Below the pieces are notes generated by a model. That model searched no databases, was not told the DNA's origin, and saw only the letters and a list, made by a program, of their open reading frames with translations. A stretch of 8,274 nucleotides of DNA from IMG/VR virus record IMGVR_UViG_3300014523_000046. The stretch is one strand, 5' to 3'. How positions within the stretch are numbered: position 1 is the first letter of the stretch; every line of letters begins with the position of its first letter. Below are positions 1 through 8,206 of this stretch, one piece after another. The stretch comes from a virus. Lineage: Duplodnaviria; Heunggongvirae; Uroviricota; Caudoviricetes. Made by a program: the position numbers and the translations under genes.

Positions 1-208
1 TCGCTCCATGCGTTTGCTCTTCACTTACGGCTAAAAATATAACGTCAAATCACTCAGCATGAAAGAGTTAAAGATTCAGCGCGTTTCCCTTACATAATCT
101 GTCGTTTGTATTCTCATCAGGCATACCGGAAAGACTAGGTATTGTCACACAACCAATACCATCGACAATCGAGAGTTATACCTATTCGGTAATGTTTAAA
201 TATAACAA

Positions 209-236
209 AACCCCGTAAAAACGAGGTTTATGGGTA
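209..236 (-). terminator. Weak candidate intrinsic terminator downstream of the Gns-family gene
   Basis: On the minus strand an imperfect hairpin (plus-strand arms around 207-215 and 222-230, one G-U pair) is followed by a T-rich tail; it lies about 55 nt past the stop of the 290-463 gene. Confidence 0.3.
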
Positions 237-289
237 ATTTGTATTGTTGAATAGCATCTGATGAGAAATTGATGCTAATACTAAACAGA

Positions 290-463
290 CTAGATTAAAT
301 CAATCTTGATATCATAGCTTTCAAGACCAGTCATTTTTTCCCGTGCAGTAAACTGGATACTGGTAACTTCTTTCCCGGTCTTTTTCTTAAGCTCAATGAT
401 TTTTTTTGTTATATATTCAGAAATATCTGCTTCTGTTTTTGTTTTTAACTCTTCAATGTTCAT
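290..463 (-). CDS. gnsB: GnsA/GnsB family protein (57 aa)
   Basis: Translation MNIEELKTKTEADISEYITKKIIELKKKTGKEVTSIQFTAREKMTGLESYDIKIDLI matches the short Gns family (MNIEELK...TGKEV...FTAREKMTGLESYD) as I recall it. The track ORF begins at 556, but the first in-frame ATGs are at 466 and 463 with AAGAGGAA just upstream, giving the 57-aa length typical of Gns. Stop TAG at 290-292. Confidence 0.7.
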   Translation of the reverse strand: MNIEELKTKTEADISEYITKKIIELKKKTGKEVTSIQFTAREKMTGLESYDIKIDLI

Positions 464-635
464 CATTTCCTCTTTTAGTCTGTTATGACTTTCCTGGTAC
501 ACAGTAGTGTCAATTATATGGAGCAAACGTATAAAAGATAAGATGAAACATCGCAATAATCAACATACGACGGTCTAAATTTCACACAAACAGATAAAGA
601 TGATTATCATTTATTATCAATGCATTAGAATCAAA

Positions 636-866
636 TCAATTCAAGAGTCTCATTGCTGCTTCCAGAATTTCTTCTGAAGTTACATGTCGATCCGCTGCTA
701 CATAAATGACTTTATGATCTCCGGTCAGAGATGGAAACCCTGCAGCCATTACAGTGAGGTGTGTTGTTTCGCCATTTGGATATTCACGCATGATGGTGTT
801 AACTCCGGTCATCACTGGCACTACCATTGCTGGTTCAGAGTTAAAAAAAACTATTATTTTTTTCAT
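636..866 (-). CDS. Hypothetical small protein (76 aa), occupying the position between gns and csp paralogs
   Basis: ORF in the track is 636-905, but the codon at 905 is GTG sitting directly against a terminator T-run; the first ATG is at 866 (MKKIIVFFNSEPAMVV...). Weak SD. Sequence has a plausible beta-alpha-beta-like composition but I cannot assign a family. Confidence 0.45.
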   Translation of the reverse strand: MKKIIVFFNSEPAMVVPVMTGVNTIMREYPNGETTHLTVMAAGFPSLTGDHKVIYVAADRHVTSEEILEAAMRLLN

Positions 867-910
867 AATGTTACCGTAATATGTGAGTATCCATCGACTA
901 GACACTAAGC

Positions 911-930
911 AAAAAAGCTCCCGAAGGAGC
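911..930 (-). terminator. Intrinsic terminator (GC stem, UUCG loop, U6 tail on the minus strand)
   Basis: Plus strand aaaaaa GCTCC cgaa GGAGC; on the minus strand this is a 5-bp GC-rich stem with a UUCG tetraloop followed by TTTTTT (911-916). It lies 8 nt after the stop (939-941) of the small Cys-rich ORF and about 200 nt after the cspI-like stop. Confidence 0.5.
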
Positions 931-938
931 CTTCATTT

Positions 939-1193
939 TCACTTTCTTAAATCTAACGATAGACGGCTAACATTTAAGTATTGTGAAATATTATCAAATG
1001 TAATCATCATTGATTTACAAAAGATACATTTTGCCCCGAAAGGATTCCTGTCAGAAACATCAAAAGATGATGTTCTATACTGAGAACCATGGCAACACGG
1101 GCATCTAAAGTGAATATGGTTTGTAATATTATCTACCTCAAAGTGCCACAACATGAACAGCCGCGGGGCCTTTAGGTCCGTTCTCAATACCAA
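939..1193 (-). CDS. Candidate small Cys-rich (zinc-ribbon-like) protein, start uncertain
   Basis: ORF contains C-P-C-C ... 21 aa ... C-I-F-C (CxCC...CxxC), a pattern unusual for a random ORF, and ends 8 nt before a terminator hairpin. The codon at 1193 is TTG with AGGAAG 7 nt upstream; the first ATG is at 1154. Either start overlaps the 3' end of the cspI-like gene (stop 1138) in another frame, which lowers confidence. Confidence 0.3.
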
Positions 1194-1350
1194 ATTCGAC
1201 TTCCTGATTCTCAGTTAACGTTTTGAAATCGTTGCTCTGAATAGCTGAGAAATGGACAAACACATCTTTGCTACCATCTTTCGGCGTGATGAAACCAAAA
1301 CCTTTTTCAGGGTTAAACCATTTCACTAAACCAGTCATTTTGTTAGACAT
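1138..1350 (-). CDS. cspI: Cold-shock protein, CspA family (CspI-like, 70 aa)
   Basis: Translation [70 protein letters not shown] carries the RNP1/RNP2 cold-shock-domain motifs (KGFGFI, VFVHF). Two tandem ATGs at 1353 and 1350; the second gives the canonical MSNKMTGL N-terminus. AAAGGTAATA SD-like sequence upstream, typical of csp genes. Stop TGA 1138-1140. Confidence 0.9.
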
Positions 1351-1353
1351 CAT

Positions 1354-1713
1354 TATTACCTTTTGAAGAAGTTAGCCCTTGGGCAGAATGGTCCGAAAAA
1401 AAATATCAGAGAGAAAAACCAACAAGGAAATCTCAAGAGGTACAAATAATAAAATTATAACAATGACTGCTTCAGATAATTTTGTAACAAACCAGAACAC
1501 CATTAACGCATGATTAACCAACCATAGCAAGGATTACTTTTGTAAAGAAAAACACACGAATGAAACAATAGCTTTATTTATTAATAAAACGTGTCATTCT
1601 GTCTAATGACCTTTTATCTTACCCTTAAGATTTCAAGGATTTTGACTCATGGAAGAGTCCTTTTTATTTAAATTTCACATTCAGCGCTAAAAATAATCCG
1701 ATTTAATATTAAT
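1354..1713 (-). promoter_or_regulatory. AT-rich upstream region of the cspI-like gene (promoter plus probable long 5' UTR)
   Basis: A 360-bp non-coding AT-rich gap between the Rz stop (1714) and the csp start. CspA-family genes characteristically have long structured 5' UTRs. I did not locate an exact cold-box match by eye. Confidence 0.4.
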
Positions 1714-2741
<1,028 letters not shown>

Positions 2742-2854
2742 GGATATTTATCAGGATTTATCGGCTTCAAATCCCCGGATATGTTAAATCTTACCTCACC
2801 AGTGATGGGCACTGGCGGGAGGAGGATGTCAATCTGATAAACACAGAGGCGACT

Positions 2855-3115
2855 ATGGATTACACAAATCTACCTAAACAAACTTTTGCTGATTTAATCG
2901 CACTCAGGCAAGCAGTCGTAGCTCTAATCAACTTGTTGCCGGAGAAGGAAAAGGAATTAGTTAAAGCGCTTCTTAACAGAACTGCCGCCGATTTTTCATC
3001 ATATCCACTGACAGATGACCTTGCGGACCTTCCTGAATTAATTGCAGCGTCCGCCAATAAGCTTACTGAAGAGATTTACCCTCCTCAAAAATCTTCACAA
3101 AATTCCTGCGAGTAA
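2855..3115 (+). CDS. Candidate small acidic protein (86 aa), convergent with and overlapping the 3' end of the DUF1327-like gene
   Basis: ATG at 2855 preceded by AGAGG at about 6 nt spacing. Lies in the 320-bp gap between the endolysin start and the upstream gene. Its 3' end overlaps the minus-strand gene by about 53 nt. No recognisable family. Confidence 0.25.
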   Translation: MDYTNLPKQTFADLIALRQAVVALINLLPEKEKELVKALLNRTAADFSSYPLTDDLADLPELIAASANKLTEEIYPPQKSSQNSCE

Positions 3116-3614
3116 CTTCAATGCAATAATCGTAAAACGCCGCAAACTGCTCATCGCGGCGTTTTTTTTCATCTTCAGAAGGAATCAGCACCGACAATTT
3201 TTTATTCAGATCAGCGACGCTGCCCTCCAGTTTTTCAATGGGCGATTCAATATCATCTTTTTCTGACCGCAATGCCGTCGGTGGCGTCTTCAGAGAACCA
3301 GTAATTCTTCCCGGTAGCTTTCCTTTGTAGGTTATCCACACATTCTGCGCCTCTAAAATTATGGGGCGCTTTTCCGGCGACTGCTCATCCCCTTCACATA
3401 ACCCGGCAGCAACATCCAGGAAGACCTGTCTGATGCTCCTTCTGGCTGCTGCCTCATAAAACTCCAGCGCGGCACCTTCAACACGGTCCAGCGAGATGTC
3501 CAGGTCAAAAATTTCACCGTCAAAGTGTTTTTTGTCCCGTAAGGCTACAGTTACCGCCACTTTATTCTCAAAATTGCGAACTCCTTTCACAACCAGTTCA
3601 TAGTCTTGAGTCAT
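3063..3614 (-). CDS. DUF1327 (YdfR-like) prophage protein with about 100-aa C-terminal extension (183 aa)
   Basis: N-terminal about 80 aa (MTQDYELVVKGVRNFENKV...DGEIFDLDISLDRVEGAALEFYEAAARRS) match my recollection of the YdfR/DUF1327 family that sits between holin and endolysin in Qin-like prophages. The track ORF begins at a TTG (3635); the first ATG is at 3614, just after the holin stop. Stop TAA 3063-3065. Confidence 0.65.
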   Translation of the reverse strand: MTQDYELVVKGVRNFENKVAVTVALRDKKHFDGEIFDLDISLDRVEGAALEFYEAAARRSIRQVFLDVAAGLCEGDEQSPEKRPIILEAQNVWITYKGKLPGRITGSLKTPPTALRSEKDDIESPIEKLEGSVADLNKKLSVLIPSEDEKKRRDEQFAAFYDYCIEVTRRNFVKIFEEGKSLQ

Positions 3615-3618
3615 TGGA

Positions 3619-3834
3619 TTACTCTCTTCTCGCAACCTTACGCCTGTCTTCTTTAATCTTGAAATAAAGGTTTGTCAGATACGTCAGCATGCCAAATACC
3701 AGACTACCCAATACACCTATTGCCGCCCACTGTGAGGGCGTGACTTTATCGAGCAACTGTAAAAACCAGTAGCCAGCACTGCCTGCAGAGGTGCTGTAGG
3801 CGATGCCCGTTGTTAACTTATCCATGGATTTCAT
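3619..3834 (-). CDS. Class II holin, phage-21 S-like pinholin (71 aa) with dual-start motif
   Basis: Within track ORF 3619-3918, ATG at 3834 with strong SD (GGAGGTGAGGCT-ATG) gives [71 protein letters not shown]: two TM segments, a charged C-terminus, and the MKSM dual start (Met1/Met4) typical of S21. Confidence 0.9.
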
Positions 3835-3924
3835 AGCCTCACCTCCGCAGATAACGGATGGTGTACACGGTTTGGTTCGAAGAAGGAAAGAAGTTACATT
3901 AGCGTAAGGCCCGAACATCTATTC

Positions 3925-3956
3925 AAAAAGAAAAACGCCAGCAATTATTCTGGCGT
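3925..3956 (-). terminator. Intrinsic terminator downstream of the AraC-like gene
   Basis: Perfect 7-bp stem ACGCCAG/CTGGCGT (3935-3941 and 3950-3956) with an 8-nt loop; on the minus strand it is followed by TTTTTCTTTTT (plus 3925-3934). About 70 nt past the AraC stop (4025). Confidence 0.55.
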
Positions 3957-4024
3957 AGCTAAAAATATCGTATAATCTTACACTTCAAAAAATAACTTTA
4001 TAAAATGCCATCACATCATATCTT

Positions 4025-4738
4025 CTAAGAAAATCTTGATAAATATTGGTGCGGAGGCACACCAAAATATCCTCTAAAAACACTTACAAAATATGATGCA
4101 TTGTCATACCCGCATATTCCCGCCACCTTGCCGACAGTATGGTTACTGTAGATCAATAATCTTTGCGCCATCATCATTCGTTCTTCAAGAATTAATTTAC
4201 TAAACGATAATCCTTCGTTTTTTAATTTTCTTTTTAACAAACTCTCGCTCATATATAATCTTGAAGATATATCACAAAGTCTCCATGACGCTGAGATATC
4301 CGAGTGAATAATAGCCTTAACTTTACAACCTAAGCTATTAAGACTTCCGAACAAAAAACTTTGCACTATTTTCTCTGAAGATAAGACAGCAAGACATGCA
4401 AGTGATATTTGATTTCTAACTACATCCACGGTTTTGCTATCACAATTCAAGCATGCAACCAAGTTCCTTAACAATGAAAAATCTTCACATTCTACTATCA
4501 AGTATGACGGATAAAACCTTCTTACAGAAAAAGGTGAGAGTGTGTAGTTTTTAAAGAAATCATTAACTGTTTTCTCCTCAACATCTACGATCATTAGATG
4601 ATCTGTATTTGACGAAAAAAGATCTTTTAAATTGTATTCAATGAGGACAGCATTTCCTTTTTTAAACAAAATATCTTCTTTACCAATTCGGACAACAAAC
4701 GAGTTCAACACCAAAATGATAGAACATATGTATGGCAT
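4025..4738 (-). CDS. AraC/XylS-family transcriptional regulator (237 aa), AT-rich horizontally acquired type
   Basis: C-terminal about 100 aa carry the double helix-turn-helix of AraC/XylS proteins (...SESLLKRKLKNEGLSFSKLILEERMMMAQRLL...VGKVAGICGYDNASYFVSVFRGYFGVPPHQY). The N-terminal domain is not recognisable. The codon at 4747 is GTG and lies inside the SD; ATG at 4738 with AGGTGG 5 nt upstream is the likely start. Very low GC compared with the lysis genes. Confidence 0.85.
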   Translation of the reverse strand: MPYICSIILVLNSFVVRIGKEDILFKKGNAVLIEYNLKDLFSSNTDHLMIVDVEEKTVNDFFKNYTLSPFSVRRFYPSYLIVECEDFSLLRNLVACLNCDSKTVDVVRNQISLACLAVLSSEKIVQSFLFGSLNSLGCKVKAIIHSDISASWRLCDISSRLYMSESLLKRKLKNEGLSFSKLILEERMMMAQRLLIYSNHTVGKVAGICGYDNASYFVSVFRGYFGVPPHQYLSRFS

Positions 4739-5144
4739 ATTATCCACCTGATATCATTGGGGTTACACCAGGTAAGTATAGGTGGAAAATCAATATTCGC
4801 CAGTTCAACAATAAGGAAAATCTCATTGCATCACAACTATAAAACCATGTGTTTAACTCACAAAAAACAAATCATTAAACTAATCTGTTATATTATAATA
4901 GCTGCGTGCAATAATAATATTATATGCTCTTAATATTCACTTGAAATATCTTCATATAAAAACAGATTGAATAAAATCTTTTGGGGCTGGTATGTTTACC
5001 AACATTAAATTGCATCTCAATGTTTTCTTTAGCGTGAACAGGATTTTTATACAAACTGACACTATGGGCATCATAGCGTAGTTTTTACGATTGTAAATAT
5101 CCTGCATACAGGAACTCATCACTTTCAGATGATATCGCATACAG
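4739..5144 (-). promoter_or_regulatory. AT-rich intergenic region upstream of the AraC-like gene (probable promoter and silencing region)
   Basis: About 400 bp of strongly AT-rich non-coding sequence with many A/T tracts, between the DUF523/DUF1722 stop and the AraC start. The only ORF here (4952-5140) looks spurious. Typical of xenogeneic promoter regions; no specific hexamers assigned. Confidence 0.35.
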
Positions 5145-6104
5145 TTAATTCACCATCAGTCTTAGAGCCAGTTCTTCCGGATAGGGATCGAAGTAATTCT
5201 GTGTAAGCAAGTAATCATTAGGATACTCACCCAGATAATGCTTCAGCAGAGTCAACGGCGCAAGAAGAGGCAATGTGCCAAAGCGATAGTTAAGTATAAC
5301 CTCGCTCAACTCTTTACGCTGGCGTGTACTTAAGTAATTACTAAAATACCCCTGTATATGCATCAGCACATTCGTGTGATTTTTACGTGATGCTGGTTTT
5401 CTGAGAATCGCCATCAGATTATCACGATACACCTCAAAGTATGATTCAAGGTCCGCCCACTCGTGTATTGCAGCCACAAATGGTCCCATATCTTTATAGC
5501 CTGCCTGGCTATGCGCCAACAACTGAAGCTTATAACGACTATGAAAAGCTAATAACTCTCTTCTTGATAATTTCTCCTTGTAAAGATGATTGAGCTCATG
5601 CAAAGCAAAAACTCTTTCAATAAAATTCTCACGAAGCACTGGATCATGTAATCGCCCATCCTCTTCAACCGGTAGCCAGGAAAACTTTTCCATCAAAGTG
5701 CTCGTAAATAGTCCCACTCCATCTTTACGACCTCGATTACCATTTTCATCATAGACACGCACGCGCTCCATGCCACAGCTGGGAGATTTAGCACAAACCA
5801 CAAACCCCGATACATCCTTTAATTTGTCCATATAAGAACGACTAAACTCTGTCATTCTCTCTGTCACATCCTCATTCTGGTCGTGGCTGAAACACATCCG
5901 TATATTTCCTTGCTTCGAGCGCACAAGTCGTAGAGCAGGACGCGGAACTGGCAGCCCTATAGCCATTTCCGGACATACTGGTCTGAATGTTACCCATTCC
6001 ACTAATTTGTCCATTAAAAAGTCATCTCTTTTGTGACCACCATCAAAACGAACAGCAGAACCGCCCAAACAACCGCTGATCCCAATCACAGGTTTTTTTA
6101 TCAT
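5145..6104 (-). CDS. DUF523 (TudS-like Fe-S) + DUF1722 (YbgA-like) fusion protein (319 aa)
   Basis: N-terminus MIKKPVIGISGCLGGSAVRFDGGH with Cys at about 12, 44 and 104 (SPSCG) matches the three-Cys [4Fe-4S] ligand pattern of DUF523/TudS-type proteins. The C-terminal half is helical and YbgA/DUF1722-like. ATG at 6104 preceded by AAGGGGGAGGAA. Stop TAA 5145-5147. Confidence 0.8.
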   Translation of the reverse strand: MIKKPVIGISGCLGGSAVRFDGGHKRDDFLMDKLVEWVTFRPVCPEMAIGLPVPRPALRLVRSKQGNIRMCFSHDQNEDVTERMTEFSRSYMDKLKDVSGFVVCAKSPSCGMERVRVYDENGNRGRKDGVGLFTSTLMEKFSWLPVEEDGRLHDPVLRENFIERVFALHELNHLYKEKLSRRELLAFHSRYKLQLLAHSQAGYKDMGPFVAAIHEWADLESYFEVYRDNLMAILRKPASRKNHTNVLMHIQGYFSNYLSTRQRKELSEVILNYRFGTLPLLAPLTLLKHYLGEYPNDYLLTQNYFDPYPEELALRLMVN

Positions 6105-6296
6105 TTCCTCCCCCTTGACTAATTCATTAACACATAAACTTTGTAGTGCACGGACTAAATTGCCTTTCTGGCTTCATCACTGACAATTTTTCTGTTATTG
6201 ACTATTCCTAATATAGTAGGAAAGTTCTTTAAGTGATCGGTCGTACTCATCTATCTTTCATACTTACTCTCAACTATCAAAAGTACAGGATTTATT

Positions 6297-6821
6297 ATGA
6301 AGTTATGGCCTGTGTTGACTGGCATTGCACTCTCTTTCACTCTTATAGCATGTAAGGCCCCGACACCACCTAAAGGTGTGCAGCCGATTACAAATTTTGA
6401 CGCCAACCGCTACCTCGGAAAATGGTATGAAATAGCTCGCCTCGAGAACTGGTTCGAACGTGGTCTGGAACAGGTCAGCGCTACTTATGAAAAACGGAAC
6501 GACGGAGGGATTCGCGTACTTAACCGTGGATACGATCCAACGAAAAACAAATGGAGCGAGAGCGAAGGTAAAGCATACTTTACTGGAGATACTAAAACTG
6601 CAGCGTTGAAAGTTTCGTTTTTTGGCCCCTTCTATGGTGGCTATAATGTAATCAAGCTGGATGATGAGTATAAGTATGCTCTTGTCAGTGGTCCGAACAG
6701 AGAATACCTATGGATTCTGGCAAGGACCCAAACTATTCCAGATAATGTAAAAGCAGACTATGTGCGTACCGCTCAAAAGTTGGGATTCAATGTCAATGAA
6801 CTATTATGGGTTAAACAATAA
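6297..6821 (+). CDS. Bacterial lipocalin Blc-like outer-membrane lipoprotein (174 aa)
   Basis: Signal peptide with lipobox L-I-A-C (MKLWPVLTGIALSFTLIACKAPTPPKG) and lipocalin core motifs shared with Blc (NFDANRYLGKWYEIAR, KVSFFGPFYGGYNVI, YLWILAR). SD AGGA 6 nt before the ATG. Plus strand, opposite to the surrounding phage genes. Confidence 0.9.
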   Translation: MKLWPVLTGIALSFTLIACKAPTPPKGVQPITNFDANRYLGKWYEIARLENWFERGLEQVSATYEKRNDGGIRVLNRGYDPTKNKWSESEGKAYFTGDTKTAALKVSFFGPFYGGYNVIKLDDEYKYALVSGPNREYLWILARTQTIPDNVKADYVRTAQKLGFNVNELLWVKQ

Positions 6822-6849
6822 AATCCCCACCCGAAATGATACTTATTAG

Positions 6850-6877
6850 AAAAAAAACCAGCCTTTGGGGAGGCTGG
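6850..6877 (-). terminator. Intrinsic terminator downstream of Q (tR'-like); may also serve the convergent blc-like gene
   Basis: Perfect 7-bp stem CCAGCCT/AGGCTGG (6858-6864 and 6871-6877) with a 6-nt loop; on the minus strand it is followed by an 8-T run (plus A-run 6850-6857). Located about 100 nt downstream of the Q stop and 37 nt after the blc-like stop. Confidence 0.65.
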
Positions 6878-6879
6878 CT

Positions 6880-6977
6880 AAATCAGGAAACAAGCTGTTA
6901 TATGATAATAACTACGTTGCGATTCCAACATTTAAAATGTTAGACTAATGAAAATCAGACAGCAACTTTTCCTTTAA
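6880..6977 (-). promoter_or_regulatory. Candidate late promoter / Q-utilisation region between Q and the terminator
   Basis: By analogy with lambdoid pR'-qut-tR' organisation. Minus-strand hexamers TTGCTG (6965-6960) and TAACAT (6942-6937) with 17-bp spacing are one possible -35/-10 pair, which would predict a short transcript of about 80 nt. The assignment is speculative. Confidence 0.3.
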
Positions 6978-7355
6978 TTATTTCGAACAATCAGCATCCA
7001 TCTCCAATCGGAGATCCAACACCATCAGCATGCCCTCCACTACGCCCTCAGCTTTCTGGAGCATCCTGCCAACCCAACAATCAGATCGCCCATGCTTACG
7101 TGCAAGCGCCATAAAAGTCATGCCGCCGACATAATAGTCCACCAATAAATCATGTAAATCGCTGTTGTTTTTTTTCAGGCGAGCCATACATTCACAAATG
7201 ATCATCGCGTCATCGTCACAGCATTGCGGACGAGATCTTACTTTTGAAGGAATTAATCCCTTAAAACCGGCGGCAATGGACGACCAGGTCACATCTTCAT
7301 GATTATTAGCCGCCCATGCCCCCCAACGCTCAAGAACCATCTGAATATCACGCAT
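6978..7355 (-). CDS. Phage antitermination protein Q, short QuuD-like type (125 aa)
   Basis: Translation from ATG 7355 ([26 protein letters not shown]...[32 protein letters not shown]) matches my recollection of the approximately 127-aa Q-like antiterminators of DLP12-type prophages (Phage_antitermQ family). The track start at 7370 is a TTG; ATG 7355 has GGAG 8 nt upstream. Followed by a terminator, as expected for Q. Confidence 0.8.
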
Positions 7356-7372
7356 CAACTTACTCCACAAAA

Positions 7373-8206
7373 TTAGGCCAGCACACCAATTGCCAGCGCG
7401 CGATCGATAAATCGAAAAATCAGCTCCAGTTGGGAGCCATACTTCTCTTCAAATGCCACGGTATCCGTATGCAACTCGTCGTGATGCTTTCTGCACAAAG
7501 GCAACACAAAGAGATCATGTGCTTTGGTTCCCATTCCGCCCTGCCCGTGACCAATCAGATGATGCGGATCGTCGGCTGGCATACCGCAGCAAGCACACGG
7601 CTGTGTCTTAACCCAGCGTGTGTATTTCTCCTTAACCCAACGGTGACGTTTAGGCAGCTTCATGAAAGATTCCGGAGACTCTGGATCAACGGTGATGCTT
7701 ACCACCGTCTTTTCCTGTGATGGGTTTTGTTGCTGGTGGGCGTGAGGCAACGGTGCAAGATTTTTTGTGCGCTGTTTCAATATGCTGGTGGCGGTCTGCT
7801 CTCCCGGTACGATGTCGCTTTCGCGGTACACCGAGCAGTTTTTTTCCGCTGGTAATCCCAGCGAGCGACGTAATACCGCTTCCGGTAGCGCGTCCGCCAC
7901 CTGATTGCGGACCGCCCACCAGGATAATTCAGCCAGAGATAATTCACGCTCCTGCGTACCGCTTATTGTGTGACCGATGACGTCAATCATCCATGCTGAC
8001 AGGTTTTGATGAGCAAGTTGCTCGAGTGATTCGGATGTCTGGTCACGCAGCTGGTTGTCGCAGTGCCAGCACAACACCATTGCGCCGGTACCATAACGGT
8101 GAATAACGGTTTCGCTGTGATGATAATCGCCGAGTGGCCACTGGCAGGATTTAATATGGCGCAACAGCCAGTCAGACAATGCACCAGCACTGATCTTACC
8201 CAGCAA
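7373..8206 (-). CDS. Lambdoid nin-region protein with C-terminal Cys/His-rich DUF1364/DUF968-like (HNH-like) motif; start uncertain
   Basis: C-terminal segment ...[45 protein letters not shown] has the CxxC...HH...GTK...C..HH pattern I associate with YbcO/YdfU-type prophage proteins found upstream of Q. The track start codon (8206) is TTG with no SD; the first in-frame ATG is at 8080. Stop TAA 7373-7375, 17 nt before the Q start. Confidence 0.55.

What the first reader, a model, noticed from the sequence alone, without database searches (positions are those of the whole stretch)
5145..6104. Fe-S DUF523 (TudS-like) fused to DUF1722 (YbgA-like), encoded in a phage late operon
The N-terminal half carries the three-Cys pattern of DUF523 proteins, whose characterised member TudS is a [4Fe-4S] thiouracil desulfidase. 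The C-terminal half resembles YbgA/DUF1722, which in E. coli is linked to the photolyase gene. A nucleobase-desulfidase-like enzyme co-transcribed with lysis genes could plausibly act on thiolated nucleosides (tRNA s4U/s2U or thiolated DNA), either as a host-takeover function or as a counter-defence. That is inference; the function is unknown.
Basis: partly seen in the sequence, partly recalled or inferred. Interest (0 to 1): 0.7.

Follow-up and report, generated by a model that had tools for sequence, protein, structure and literature searches.

The report
Prophage-borne RudS tRNA 4-thiouridine desulfidase
The gene is real and is a close copy (92% identical) of a phage enzyme shown in 2024 to strip the sulfur from the UV-sensitive 4-thiouridine of transfer RNA. 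The enzyme itself is therefore known; only its use to the phage or its host is still open.

Summary
ORF 5145-6104 (- strand, 319 aa) has an N-terminal TudS/DUF523 domain (Pfam E 5.8e-40) fused to a C-terminal DUF1722/YbgA domain (E 9.4e-40). Cys12, Cys44 and Cys110 align with the three [4Fe-4S] ligands of TudS.

The function is not unknown. This fusion is the RudS family (Jamontas et al. 2024, NAR), which converts s4U at position 8 (and 9, where present) of tRNA to uridine. [quoted passage not shown] All residues whose mutation abolished activity in RudS_KT are invariant here and across 48 diverse homologues.

The window is an E. coli Qin-type lambdoid prophage. The gene lies in a 3.5-kb module, Q - terminator - blc (opposite strand) - rudS - AraC-like regulator - terminator. 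This module sits just upstream of the holin, where other lambdoid phages carry accessory genes ("morons"). About 21% of complete E. coli genomes carry rudS, and it is under purifying selection (dN/dS 0.11-0.22).

No evidence supports action on thiolated DNA or a counter-defence role. Verdict: already known, modest interest. What RudS does for the phage or lysogen remains untested.

The parts
5145..6104 (-). rudS: 319-aa TudS-DUF1722 fusion, a tRNA 4-thiouridine desulfidase
   Evidence: ORF. Pfam PF04463 + PF08349. 92% identical (293/319, no gaps) to RudS_vir, phage 1H12 gp66, which was tested in PMC11417400. phrog_3275 matches full length, E 1.5e-224.
5658..6086 (-). TudS/DUF523 catalytic domain (aa 7-149). 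Cys12 (6069-6071), Cys44 (5973-5975), Cys110 (5775-5777); Glu46, Arg55, Ser107, Ser109
   Evidence: Pfam E 5.8e-40. The Cys residues align with the TudS ligands. C12, R19, C44, P45, E46, R55, S107, P108, S109 and C110 are invariant in 48 homologues of 34-92% identity. The Foldseek PDB search has TudS 6z96/6zw9 as its two best matches, prob 1.00, TM on target 0.61-0.64 (6z96 E 4.1e-4, 6zw9 E 1.1e-3).
5178..5531 (-). DUF1722 / YbgA-like helical domain (aa 192-309), the proposed tRNA anticodon-arm binding domain
   Evidence: Pfam E 9.4e-40. NCBIfam YbgA model E 4.7e-56. All-helical in the AF2 model. The role in tRNA binding comes from PMC11417400.
6107..6114 (-). Shine-Dalgarno sequence GGGGGAGG, 4 nt upstream of the ATG
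   Evidence: Read directly from the sequence.
6105..6296 (.). 192-bp divergent intergenic region between rudS and blc. It presumably holds the lysogen-phase promoters, but none could be called with confidence
   Evidence: Mean column identity 95% across four alleles. The consensus promoter scan places no site here and is at chance level overall (13 found vs 12.0 expected). GC 0.34.
6297..6821 (+). blc-like outer-membrane lipocalin, divergent from rudS and antisense to late transcription
   Evidence: Pfam Lipocalin_2 E 7.5e-43. NCBIfam Blc 312.6 bits, above the cut-off of 267. Reported as a moron in more than 50% of infant-gut lambda phages (PMC6969025).
4025..4738 (-). AraC/XylS-family (YdeO-like) regulator directly downstream of rudS, AT-rich (33% GC)
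   Evidence: Pfam HTH_18 and HTH_AraC. Best NCBIfam match is YdeO at 111 bits, far below the cut-off of 348. 76% identical to 1H12 gp67. Found in 922 E. coli genomes. GC.
6848..6879 (-). Intrinsic-terminator-like hairpin (9-bp stem, 5 G-C pairs) plus a T8 run, about 100 nt downstream of the Q stop codon: candidate tR'
   Evidence: Hairpin identical in the three alleles compared; one allele has a 1-nt gap and one substitution in the T-run. The tR' role is inferred from the lambda paradigm.
3935..3956 (-). Terminator-like hairpin plus T-run between the AraC-like gene and the holin: the downstream end of the accessory cassette
   Evidence: sequence.
6978..7355 (-). Antiterminator Q (PF06530), always linked to the cassette
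   Evidence: Pfam E 8e-51. 97-100% identical Q next to rudS in the viral loci that retain upstream sequence. RefSeq coordinates.
3619..3834 (-). P21-type class II holin, first gene of the lysis cassette
   Evidence: Pfam PF04971 E 8.9e-34. Annotated essQ.
3864..7372 (.). Exchangeable 3.5-kb module (Q + blc + rudS + AraC-like gene)
   Evidence: Against phage 2H10, homology runs 1-3863 (98.4%) and resumes at 7373. 2H10 has a different Q plus two csp genes in between.

Best explanation
The ORF encodes a RudS enzyme, a [4Fe-4S]-dependent desulfidase that converts 4-thiouridine at position 8 (and 9, where present) of host tRNAs back to uridine.

Mechanism, taken from the TudS and RudS literature and mapped onto conserved residues here:
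- Cys12, Cys44 and Cys110 hold three irons of the cluster.
- The fourth, free iron binds the thiocarbonyl sulfur of s4U.
- Glu46, Ser107/Ser109 and Arg55 carry out the hydrolytic replacement of S by O.
- The helical DUF1722 domain docks on the anticodon arm, which makes the enzyme specific for intact tRNA and not for free thiouracil.

Genomic setting (shown here): the gene is one of three accessory genes (blc, rudS, a YdeO-like AraC regulator). They travel with one particular Q antiterminator as a 3.5-kb module between a tR'-like terminator and the holin of E. coli lambdoid (Qin/DLP12/lambda-type) prophages.

Inferred, not shown: Q-modified polymerase reads through the module on induction, so RudS rises with the late genes. 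In the lysogen, any expression would come from the divergent blc-rudS intergenic region.

Most likely biological role (inference): a lysogenic-conversion function. Lowering tRNA s4U blunts the near-UV (UVA) growth delay and stringent response of the host, as shown for overexpressed RudS_KT.
For: - Domains and ligands.
- 92% identity without gaps to RudS_vir, in the same gene order Q-blc-rudS-AraC-like-holin in phage 1H12.
- PMC11417400 reports that all six overexpressed RudS orthologues, RudS_vir included, lowered E. coli tRNA s4U 4.7- to 26-fold. Stand-alone TudS or YbgA did not, and s2C was unaffected.
- In RudS_KT, mutation of Cys17/49/114, Glu51, Ser111/113 or Arg60 abolished activity, and DUF1722 is modelled on the anticodon arm.
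- The equivalents C12, C44, C110, E46, S107, S109, R55 and R19 are invariant in 25 enterobacterial and 48 diverse homologues.
- The fold search returns TudS as the two best PDB matches (prob 1.00), with nothing else above prob 0.14.
- Purifying selection: dN/dS 0.11-0.22 among prophage alleles, with dS up to 0.29. The ORF is intact in 96 of 97 loci.
- Prevalence: 1136 of 5426 complete E. coli genomes, 154 IMG/VR contigs and 12 records of isolated coliphages.
- Module structure and terminators.
- Lower GC of the cassette: 0.31-0.44 against 0.46-0.53 for the flanks.
- UVA growth-delay relief by RudS_KT: abstract and discussion of PMC11417400.
Against: - No assay was done on this exact allele; it differs from RudS_vir at 26 of 319 residues.
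- RudS_vir was the orthologue with comparatively low tRNA desulfidation despite high protein level. It also gave the shortest lag on 4-thiouracil, so it may be more promiscuous towards free bases.
- Expression is unknown. No convincing sigma-70 promoter was found upstream of rudS, and the scan is at chance level.
- The light-responsive context typical of chromosomal rudS (MerR/LitR regulator, photolyase) is absent here.
- The UVA-protection role rests on overexpression of a Pseudomonas orthologue.
- The AF2 model is only moderate (pLDDT 69.8), with low confidence around the active-site loops.
- The 96/97 intactness figure is biased, because the loci were retrieved by matching RudS.
Confidence: 0.85

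Rival explanations
1. It works mainly as a TudS-like salvage or detoxification enzyme on free 4-thiouracil, 4-thiouridine or 4-thio-UMP, not on intact tRNA.
For: The catalytic domain is a full TudS domain. RudS_vir gave the shortest lag of all RudS proteins when a uracil auxotroph was fed 4-thiouracil, and showed relatively low tRNA desulfidation for its expression level.
Against: No RudS rescued the auxotroph as TudS did. RudS_vir did lower tRNA s4U, whereas stand-alone TudS did not. The DUF1722 domain is under the same strong conservation as the catalytic domain, which argues for the tRNA-directed function.
Confidence: 0.07
2. It is a lytic-phase host-takeover or counter-defence factor. It would be made from the late transcript to remodel the host tRNA pool, for example by destabilising s4U-dependent tRNAs or evading a tRNA-directed defence, and would not be a fitness factor for the lysogen.
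For: It lies on the late strand downstream of Q and a tR'-like terminator, so it should be read by Q-modified polymerase. RudS_KT overexpression lowered tRNA-Ser and tRNA-Tyr about 2-fold. The module always travels with its Q gene.
Against: There are no PADLOC hits for any of the three cassette proteins. No known defence system keys on s4U (own knowledge; nothing found). The neighbours are classic lysogenic-conversion genes (Blc lipocalin, acid-stress-type AraC regulator), one of them antisense to late transcription. The gene stays intact in decayed prophages that have lost Q and the upstream genes (L010, L011). Late expression would come too late to change translation of early and middle genes.
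Confidence: 0.12
3. It acts on sulfur in DNA (phosphorothioate or thiolated bases).
For: None beyond the word 'desulfidase'.
Against: The TudS/RudS active site binds the C4 thiocarbonyl of a uracil base, whereas phosphorothioate sulfur sits on the backbone. The RudS phylogeny correlates with ThiI, the s4U synthase. No dnd/ssp-type genes are nearby.
Confidence: 0.02
4. It is a functionless passenger gene decaying in a cryptic prophage.
For: The neighbouring AraC-like gene is often truncated (about 66 of 87 intact). IS elements frequently interrupt the region, and BL21(DE3)-type strains keep only a 49-codon stub.
Against: dN/dS is 0.11-0.22 with dS up to 0.29. All catalytic residues are kept. 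The gene is present in viable isolated phages and in a full-length prophage, and the 92%-identical orthologue is active.
Confidence: 0.04

Closest known systems
RudS_vir (Escherichia phage 1H12, NC_049947, H3V29_gp66; Jamontas et al. 2024, PMC11417400)
   Same: Same length (319 aa) and 92% identity without gaps. Same Cys12/44/110. Same gene block Q - blc - rudS - AraC-like - holin. It was tested experimentally: overexpression lowers E. coli tRNA s4U.
   Different: 26 substitutions. The AraC-like neighbour is only 76% identical. The flanks differ: Qin-type (DUF968 upstream; YdfR, RrrQ-type lysozyme and DUF2514 Rz downstream) here, against rusA/ylcG upstream and a different lysozyme in 1H12. This allele is 97.5% identical to that of the isolated phage IdasGreatGrand.
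Chromosomal RudS of Enterobacterales (e.g. RudS_ST = Salmonella LT2 STM1389/ORF319; Citrobacter, Klebsiella, Enterobacter, Serratia)
   Same: All are 319 aa with the same Cys positions (Table 1 of PMC11417400). They are 69-76% identical with every catalytic residue invariant.
   Different: Their contexts are chromosomal: a MerR-type regulator or photolyase according to the paper, and in Citrobacter the end of a SnoaL/SDR/amine-oxidase/DUF1365/CFA-synthase cluster. The prophage clade is separated from all of them by a gap from at least 92% identity within the clade to about 76% outside it.
RudS_KT (Pseudomonas putida PP_0741), the biochemically and mutationally characterised reference
   Same: Same two-domain architecture. 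Counting from the conserved Cys residues, Cys17/49/114, Glu51, Ser111/113, Arg60 and Arg24 correspond to C12/C44/C110, E46, S107/S109, R55 and R19, all invariant (residues).
   Different: KT Tyr25 and Asn26 correspond to Phe20 and Asp21; the Y25F mutant kept activity. The KT gene is light-regulated through LitR.
TudS (stand-alone DUF523; PDB 6Z92/6Z96)
   Same: Same catalytic fold and three-Cys [4Fe-4S] site.
   Different: TudS is a single domain (the deposited 6z92 chain is 166 residues), acts on free thiouracil and 4-thio-UMP, and does not lower tRNA s4U. The window protein carries the RudS-type basic loop 112-131 and the DUF1722 domain.
E. coli YbgA (b0707, stand-alone DUF1722, upstream of phr)
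   Same: The C-terminal half matches the YbgA model at E 4.7e-56. RefSeq names the whole protein 'YbgA family protein'.
   Different: The score is below the equivalog cut-off (189 vs 237 bits). YbgA has no catalytic domain and no effect on s4U. There is no photolyase gene here.
Q-to-holin accessory-gene (moron) slot of lambdoid phages (e.g. stx in Stx phages; cspB/cspF in Qin and 2H10)
   Same: Same insertion slot between Q/tR' and the holin, with lower GC and its own terminator.
   Different: The cargo is a tRNA-modification eraser plus a lipocalin and a regulator. One gene is antisense to the late transcript.

Membership tests
RudS (TudS-DUF1722 tRNA s4U desulfidase) | N-terminal TudS/DUF523 domain (PF04463) | tested here: met
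   E 5.8e-40, full-length profile match, aa 7-149. TudS is the top PDB fold match, with the only E-value at or below 0.001.
RudS (TudS-DUF1722 tRNA s4U desulfidase) | C-terminal DUF1722 domain (PF08349) fused in the same polypeptide | tested here: met
   E 9.4e-40, aa 192-309, in a single uninterrupted ORF.
RudS (TudS-DUF1722 tRNA s4U desulfidase) | Three conserved Cys ligands of the [4Fe-4S] cluster | tested here: met
   Cys12/44/110 align with TudS Cys10/43/104. They are invariant in 48 diverse homologues and occupy the same positions as RudS_vir and RudS_ST in Table 1 of PMC11417400.
RudS (TudS-DUF1722 tRNA s4U desulfidase) | Catalytic Glu (CPE motif), two Ser (SPSC motif) and Arg, all required in RudS_KT | tested here: met
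   E46, S107, S109, R55 and R19 are invariant. The requirement comes from the mutagenesis in PMC11417400. Mapping to KT numbering uses motif spacing, not a direct alignment.
RudS (TudS-DUF1722 tRNA s4U desulfidase) | Removes s4U from tRNA in vivo or in vitro | not testable with these tools
   Shown in the literature for the 92%-identical RudS_vir and five other orthologues, but not for this allele.
RudS (TudS-DUF1722 tRNA s4U desulfidase) | Binds a [4Fe-4S] cluster | not testable with these tools
   Only the ligand residues can be checked (met). The AF2 model has low confidence at 14-25 and 107-109, so the geometry was not assessed.
RudS (TudS-DUF1722 tRNA s4U desulfidase) | Light-responsive genomic context (MerR/LitR regulator, photolyase, carotenoid genes). 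This is typical of the family but not defining. | tested here: not met
   The neighbours are Q, blc, an AraC-like regulator and the holin. No MerR or phr gene lies within the 48 kb examined.
Stand-alone TudS thiouracil desulfidase | Single-domain protein that rescues a uracil auxotroph on thiouracil | tested here: not met
   The window protein is a 319-aa two-domain fusion. According to PMC11417400, no RudS behaved like TudS in that assay.
YbgA (NCBIfam PRK10167 equivalog) | Score at or above the curated cut-off of 237 bits; stand-alone protein of about 169 aa | tested here: not met
   189.1 bits, covering only aa 161-315 of a 319-aa protein. The RefSeq name 'YbgA family protein' is therefore only a family-level label.
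Lambdoid-phage moron in the late transcription unit | Lies between Q/tR' and the lysis genes; absent from otherwise homologous phages; deviant base composition; own terminator | tested here: met
   tR'-like hairpin at 6879-6856 and a terminator at 3956-3935. Replaced by a different Q plus csp genes in 2H10. GC 0.31-0.44 against 0.46-0.53.
Lambdoid-phage moron in the late transcription unit | Own promoter active in the lysogen | tested here: inconclusive
   No consensus promoter was called upstream of rudS, and the scan as a whole is at chance level (13 vs 12.0 +/- 3.7).

The most novel reading that the evidence does not exclude
The prophage RudS may be a true lysogenic-conversion (or induction-coupled) factor that lets about one fifth of E. 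coli strains switch off the s4U near-UV sensor. Carriers would then differ from K-12/B-type strains in UVA growth delay and stringent response, and the phage would gain because UV-induced lysogens keep translating. This would also revise the published statement that E. coli lacks RudS. It could be tested with natural lysogens and not only by overexpression.
Probability: 0.35. Interest if true: 0.45.

Novelty: already known. Interest (0 to 1): 0.25.

Why it matters
The enzyme class, its substrate and even the phage orthologue were published in 2024. The finding therefore adds no new biochemistry.

The context adds something modest. The gene is not rare. It rides in one conserved Q-linked accessory module found in about 21% of complete E. 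coli genomes and in viable infant-gut coliphages, and it is under purifying selection. This makes the biological role of a phage-borne tRNA-modification 'eraser' directly testable in natural lysogens. It also cautions against treating E. coli as a RudS-free background.

Tried and rejected
- Blc origin. I asked whether the phage blc-rudS pair derives from a chromosomal cluster. The 175-aa protein two genes upstream of Citrobacter rudS (a DUF3833 gene lies between them) has no similarity to the window Blc, so the idea was dropped.
- Defence or counter-defence. PADLOC gives no hit for RudS, the AraC-like protein or Blc.
- Structured RNAs and tRNAs in the window. Only the cspA thermoregulator upstream of the csp gene was found. 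The two other Rfam matches are below their thresholds, and one is the terminator hairpin. There are no tRNA genes.
- Promoter prediction for rudS and for pR'. The consensus scan is at chance level. Hand inspection gave only weak -35/-10 candidates that are not conserved in 1H12. No promoter is claimed.
- PsrA/PsrB/PatE. I tested whether the AraC-like gene is one of these known EHEC prophage regulators. A megablast sample of 922 genomes showed no O157:H7 record. The relation was not established, and no protein-level comparison was possible because no sequences were at hand.
- Structure. The AF2 model built from 24 close homologues reached only pLDDT 69.8. Deeper alignments could not be submitted because the representatives are not accepted by the tool. 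The model was used only for the TudS fold match, not for Cys geometry.
- Literature on a phage role for RudS/DUF1722. Nothing was found beyond PMC11417400.
Full report
**1. The observation**

The window holds one ORF at exactly 5145..6104 on the - strand, 319 aa long. It begins at ATG 6104, which is preceded by GGGGGAGG. Pfam finds two full-length domains. PF04463 ('2-thiouracil desulfurase' = DUF523/TudS) covers aa 7-149 at E 5.8e-40. PF08349 (DUF1722) covers aa 192-309 at E 9.4e-40.

The C-terminal half matches NCBI's YbgA model at E 4.7e-56, but at 189 bits it falls below the equivalog cut-off of 237. The only PDB sequence hit is TudS (6z92). In that alignment Cys12, Cys44 and Cys110 pair with TudS Cys10, Cys43 and Cys104. 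An AlphaFold model of moderate quality (pLDDT 69.8) has TudS as its two best PDB fold matches, both at probability 1.00 (6z96 E 4.1e-4, 6zw9 E 1.1e-3; TM on target 0.61-0.64). No solved structure matches the helical C-terminal domain.

**2. What it is**

The fusion is not of unknown function. Jamontas et al. (NAR 2024, PMC11417400) named TudS-DUF1722 fusions RudS. They showed that these proteins remove the 4-thiouridine modification from tRNA, leaving uridine at position 8(9).

Their test set included 'RudS_vir', gp66 of Escherichia phage 1H12, with Cys12/44/110. The window protein is 293/319 (92%) identical to it, without gaps. Phage 1H12 also has the same gene order: Q, blc (opposite strand), rudS, an AraC-like gene, holin.

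In that paper all six overexpressed RudS orthologues lowered E. coli tRNA s4U 4.7- to 26-fold. Stand-alone TudS or YbgA did not, and s2C was unaffected. RudS_vir was active, but comparatively weakly for its protein level. It also gave the shortest lag on 4-thiouracil in a uracil-auxotroph assay.

**3. Residue-level check**

The paper reports that mutating RudS_KT Cys17/49/114, Glu51, Ser111/113 or Arg60 abolished activity. It also reports that Arg24/Tyr25/Asn26 and Ser243/Arg244 contribute to tRNA binding or catalysis.

Counting from the conserved Cys residues, the equivalents here are:
- C12, C44 and C110 (cluster ligands);
- E46 (CPE motif);
- S107 and S109 (SPSC motif);
- R55 and R19;
- F20 and D21;
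- S239 and R240.

All are invariant among 25 enterobacterial sequences. C12, G15, V18, R19, C44, P45, E46, G50, P54, R55, S107, P108, S109, C110, G131 and P145 are the only invariant columns among 48 representatives of 34-92% identity.

The family is large: 6522 50%-identity cluster representatives at E <= 1e-3, and 1170 at E <= 1e-30. The mapping to KT numbering rests on motif spacing, because I did not have the PP_0741 sequence.

**4. Surroundings**

The window is part of an E. coli lambdoid prophage. Positions 1-8190 match strain PSJ-07 at 100.0% identity. There the stretch sits in a complete-looking prophage at the Qin site, running from int/xis through cI/cro, hokD, rem, ydfU and Q to lysis, terminase, head and tail genes.

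On the - strand the order in the window is as follows:
- DUF968/YdfU (7373-8206);
- Q (6978-7355);
- a strong hairpin plus T8 (6879-6848);
- blc (6297-6821), on the + strand;
- rudS;
- a YdeO-like AraC regulator (4025-4738);
- a second hairpin plus T-run (3956-3935);
- holin (3619-3834), YdfR, lysozyme and Rz.

The terminator-like sites are enriched over shuffles (7 found vs 3.1 +/- 1.6 expected). Promoter-like sites are not (13 vs 12.0), so I call no promoters.

The first hairpin is identical in the three alleles compared, though one allele has a small change in the T-run. It lies about 100 nt after the Q stop codon, where lambda-type phages have tR'. That assignment is an inference.

Cassette GC is 0.31-0.44 against 0.46-0.53 in the flanks. 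Against phage 2H10, homology breaks at 3863 and resumes at 7373. 2H10 carries another Q plus two csp genes in between. The exchangeable unit is therefore Q + blc + rudS + AraC-like gene, about 3.5 kb.

Across the 80 IMG/VR loci and several genomes, rudS is accompanied by the same Q (97-100%) wherever upstream sequence is retained. It is usually also accompanied by blc and the AraC-like gene. The genes further upstream (DUF968 or rusA/ylcG) and the lysozyme type vary. One such prophage sits at the lambda att site next to ybhC.

'Encoded in a phage late operon' is thus right in position. More precisely, this is a moron-type accessory module inside the late transcription unit, in the slot where other lambdoid phages carry accessory genes. 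Co-transcription with the lysis genes is inferred from Q biology and was not shown.

**5. Distribution and selection**

- rudS matches 1136 of 5426 complete E. coli genomes, 1064 of them at 80% coverage or more. Almost all copies are chromosomal.
- 154 IMG/VR contigs carry a relative.
- 12 of 50,697 phage records carry a full-length copy. All are E. coli lambdoid phages, 11 with the 1H12 allele and one (IdasGreatGrand) 97.5% identical to the window.
- Outside this clade the nearest proteins are chromosomal RudS of Citrobacter, Serratia, Klebsiella, Enterobacter and Salmonella, at 69-76% identity and all 319 aa.
- Among prophage alleles dN/dS is 0.11-0.22, with dS up to 0.29.
- The ORF is intact in 96 of 97 loci, against about 66 of 87 for the AraC-like gene and 81 of 89 for blc. 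The loci were retrieved through RudS, so the first figure is biased upward.

The paper's remark that 'E. coli lacks TudS or RudS homologues' holds for K-12. It does not hold for the species. A BL21(DE3) derivative still has the same Q and blc, plus a 49-codon rudS stub next to an IS3 element.

**6. Context of chromosomal homologues**

In Citrobacter the gene closes a cluster encoding SnoaL, SDR, amine oxidase, DUF1365, cyclopropane-fatty-acid-synthase-like, DUF2878 and DUF3833 proteins. The paper reports MerR/LitR, photolyase and carotenoid contexts and proposes a light-stress role. RudS_KT overexpression diminished the UVA-induced growth delay of E. coli. None of these neighbours is present in the prophage.

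**7. Mechanism and role**

The domains, ligands and catalytic residues are shown here. Activity of a 92%-identical orthologue is shown in the literature. The cluster chemistry is inferred: three Cys-bound irons, with the free iron binding the C4 sulfur. tRNA docking through DUF1722 is also inferred, from modelling and mutagenesis of RudS_KT.

Expression pattern and benefit are inferred more weakly. I favour a lysogenic-conversion or induction-coupled role in blunting the s4U-dependent near-UV response. Two observations support this:
- the neighbours are typical host-fitness genes, and blc was already listed as a moron in more than 50% of infant-gut lambda phages;
- rudS stays intact even in decayed prophages that have lost Q.

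A lytic-phase tRNA-remodelling or counter-defence role cannot be excluded, but it has no positive support: there are no PADLOC hits and no literature. Action on thiolated DNA has no support at all.

**8. Verdict**

The finding is real and correctly described. The enzyme family, its substrate and this very phage lineage's orthologue are already published. Novelty: already known. Interest is modest (0.25). It rests on the untested biological role and on the unexpectedly high prevalence in E. coli.

Noticed in passing
window 4025-4738 (-): A YdeO-like AraC/XylS regulator lies immediately downstream of rudS, with 33% GC and a 406-bp, 31% GC upstream region. It co-occurs with rudS in about 900 E. 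coli genomes but is often truncated (intact in about 66 of 87 loci, against 96 of 97 for rudS). It belongs to phrog_1450, of unknown function. Whether it regulates rudS or blc, or host acid-resistance genes as PsrA/PsrB/PatE do, is unknown.
   Followed up: partly
window 6297-6821 (+): A second, prophage-borne Blc lipocalin scores above the NCBIfam Blc cut-off. It is encoded antisense to the presumed late transcript and divergent from rudS. It was reported as a moron in more than 50% of infant-gut lambda phages (PMC6969025).
   Followed up: partly
L099 4001-4147 (E. coli Nico21(DE3), NZ_CP053600.1 1589699-1589845): A BL21(DE3)-derived strain carries the same Q and Blc proteins (identical accessions to PSJ-07) but only the first 49 codons of rudS, next to an IS3 element. 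BL21(DE3), the standard expression host and the one used in the RudS paper, is thus a natural rudS knockout of this module.
   Followed up: partly
(literature vs. E. coli genomes): PMC11417400 states that E. coli lacks TudS/RudS homologues. Yet 1136 of 5426 complete E. coli genomes (21%) match this rudS gene, 1064 of them at 80% coverage or more.
   Followed up: yes
L004-L006 (Salmonella serovar Derby and related contigs), rudS at 6001-6960 of L004/L006: A 73%-identical rudS sits between ttcA (the tRNA 2-thiocytidine synthase gene, next to dbpA) and a DUF1367 phage gene, with an integrase fragment. This looks like a prophage remnant at a Rac-type attachment site that lacks Q, blc and the AraC-like gene. 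It may be a second, independent capture of rudS by a prophage.
   Followed up: no
L007-L009 (Citrobacter braakii), 110-6960: The chromosomal rudS is the last gene of a nine-gene same-strand cluster: SnoaL_2, SDR, amine oxidase, DUF1365, CFA-synthase-like methyltransferase, DUF2878, an unassigned 175-aa protein, DUF3833 and rudS. This resembles photo-oxidative-stress clusters described in other bacteria (from memory, not tested here).
   Followed up: no
window 1092-1508 (-): There is a full-length match to the cspA thermoregulator RNA (RF01766, 112.8 bits, gathering score 78) covering the 5' leader and start of the prophage cold-shock gene (cspI-like, 1138-1353).
   Followed up: no
window 3063-3635 (-) and 2855-3115 (+): The 190-aa DUF1327/YdfR ORF matches phrog_2091 over its full length (E 9e-112), yet RefSeq annotates it as an incomplete pseudogene in PSJ-07. 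Its 3' end overlaps, on the opposite strand, an 86-aa ORF that is itself a full-length phrog_2572 match (E 4e-53).
   Followed up: no
one search hits H1-H4, H6-H11; L010-L017: IS3, IS1, IS2 and IS5 elements are repeatedly inserted within or next to the Q-blc-rudS-AraC module in different E. coli strains, suggesting an insertion hot spot. In the decayed prophages L010 and L011, Q and the upstream genes are gone but rudS is intact.
   Followed up: no
P0002 and P0006: Two odd architectures appear, each in a single contig: a 403-aa RudS with a GGDEF domain (PF00990) in an E. coli contig, and a 500-aa DUF3833-RudS fusion. They are probably gene-calling or assembly artefacts. Neither was checked.
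   Followed up: no
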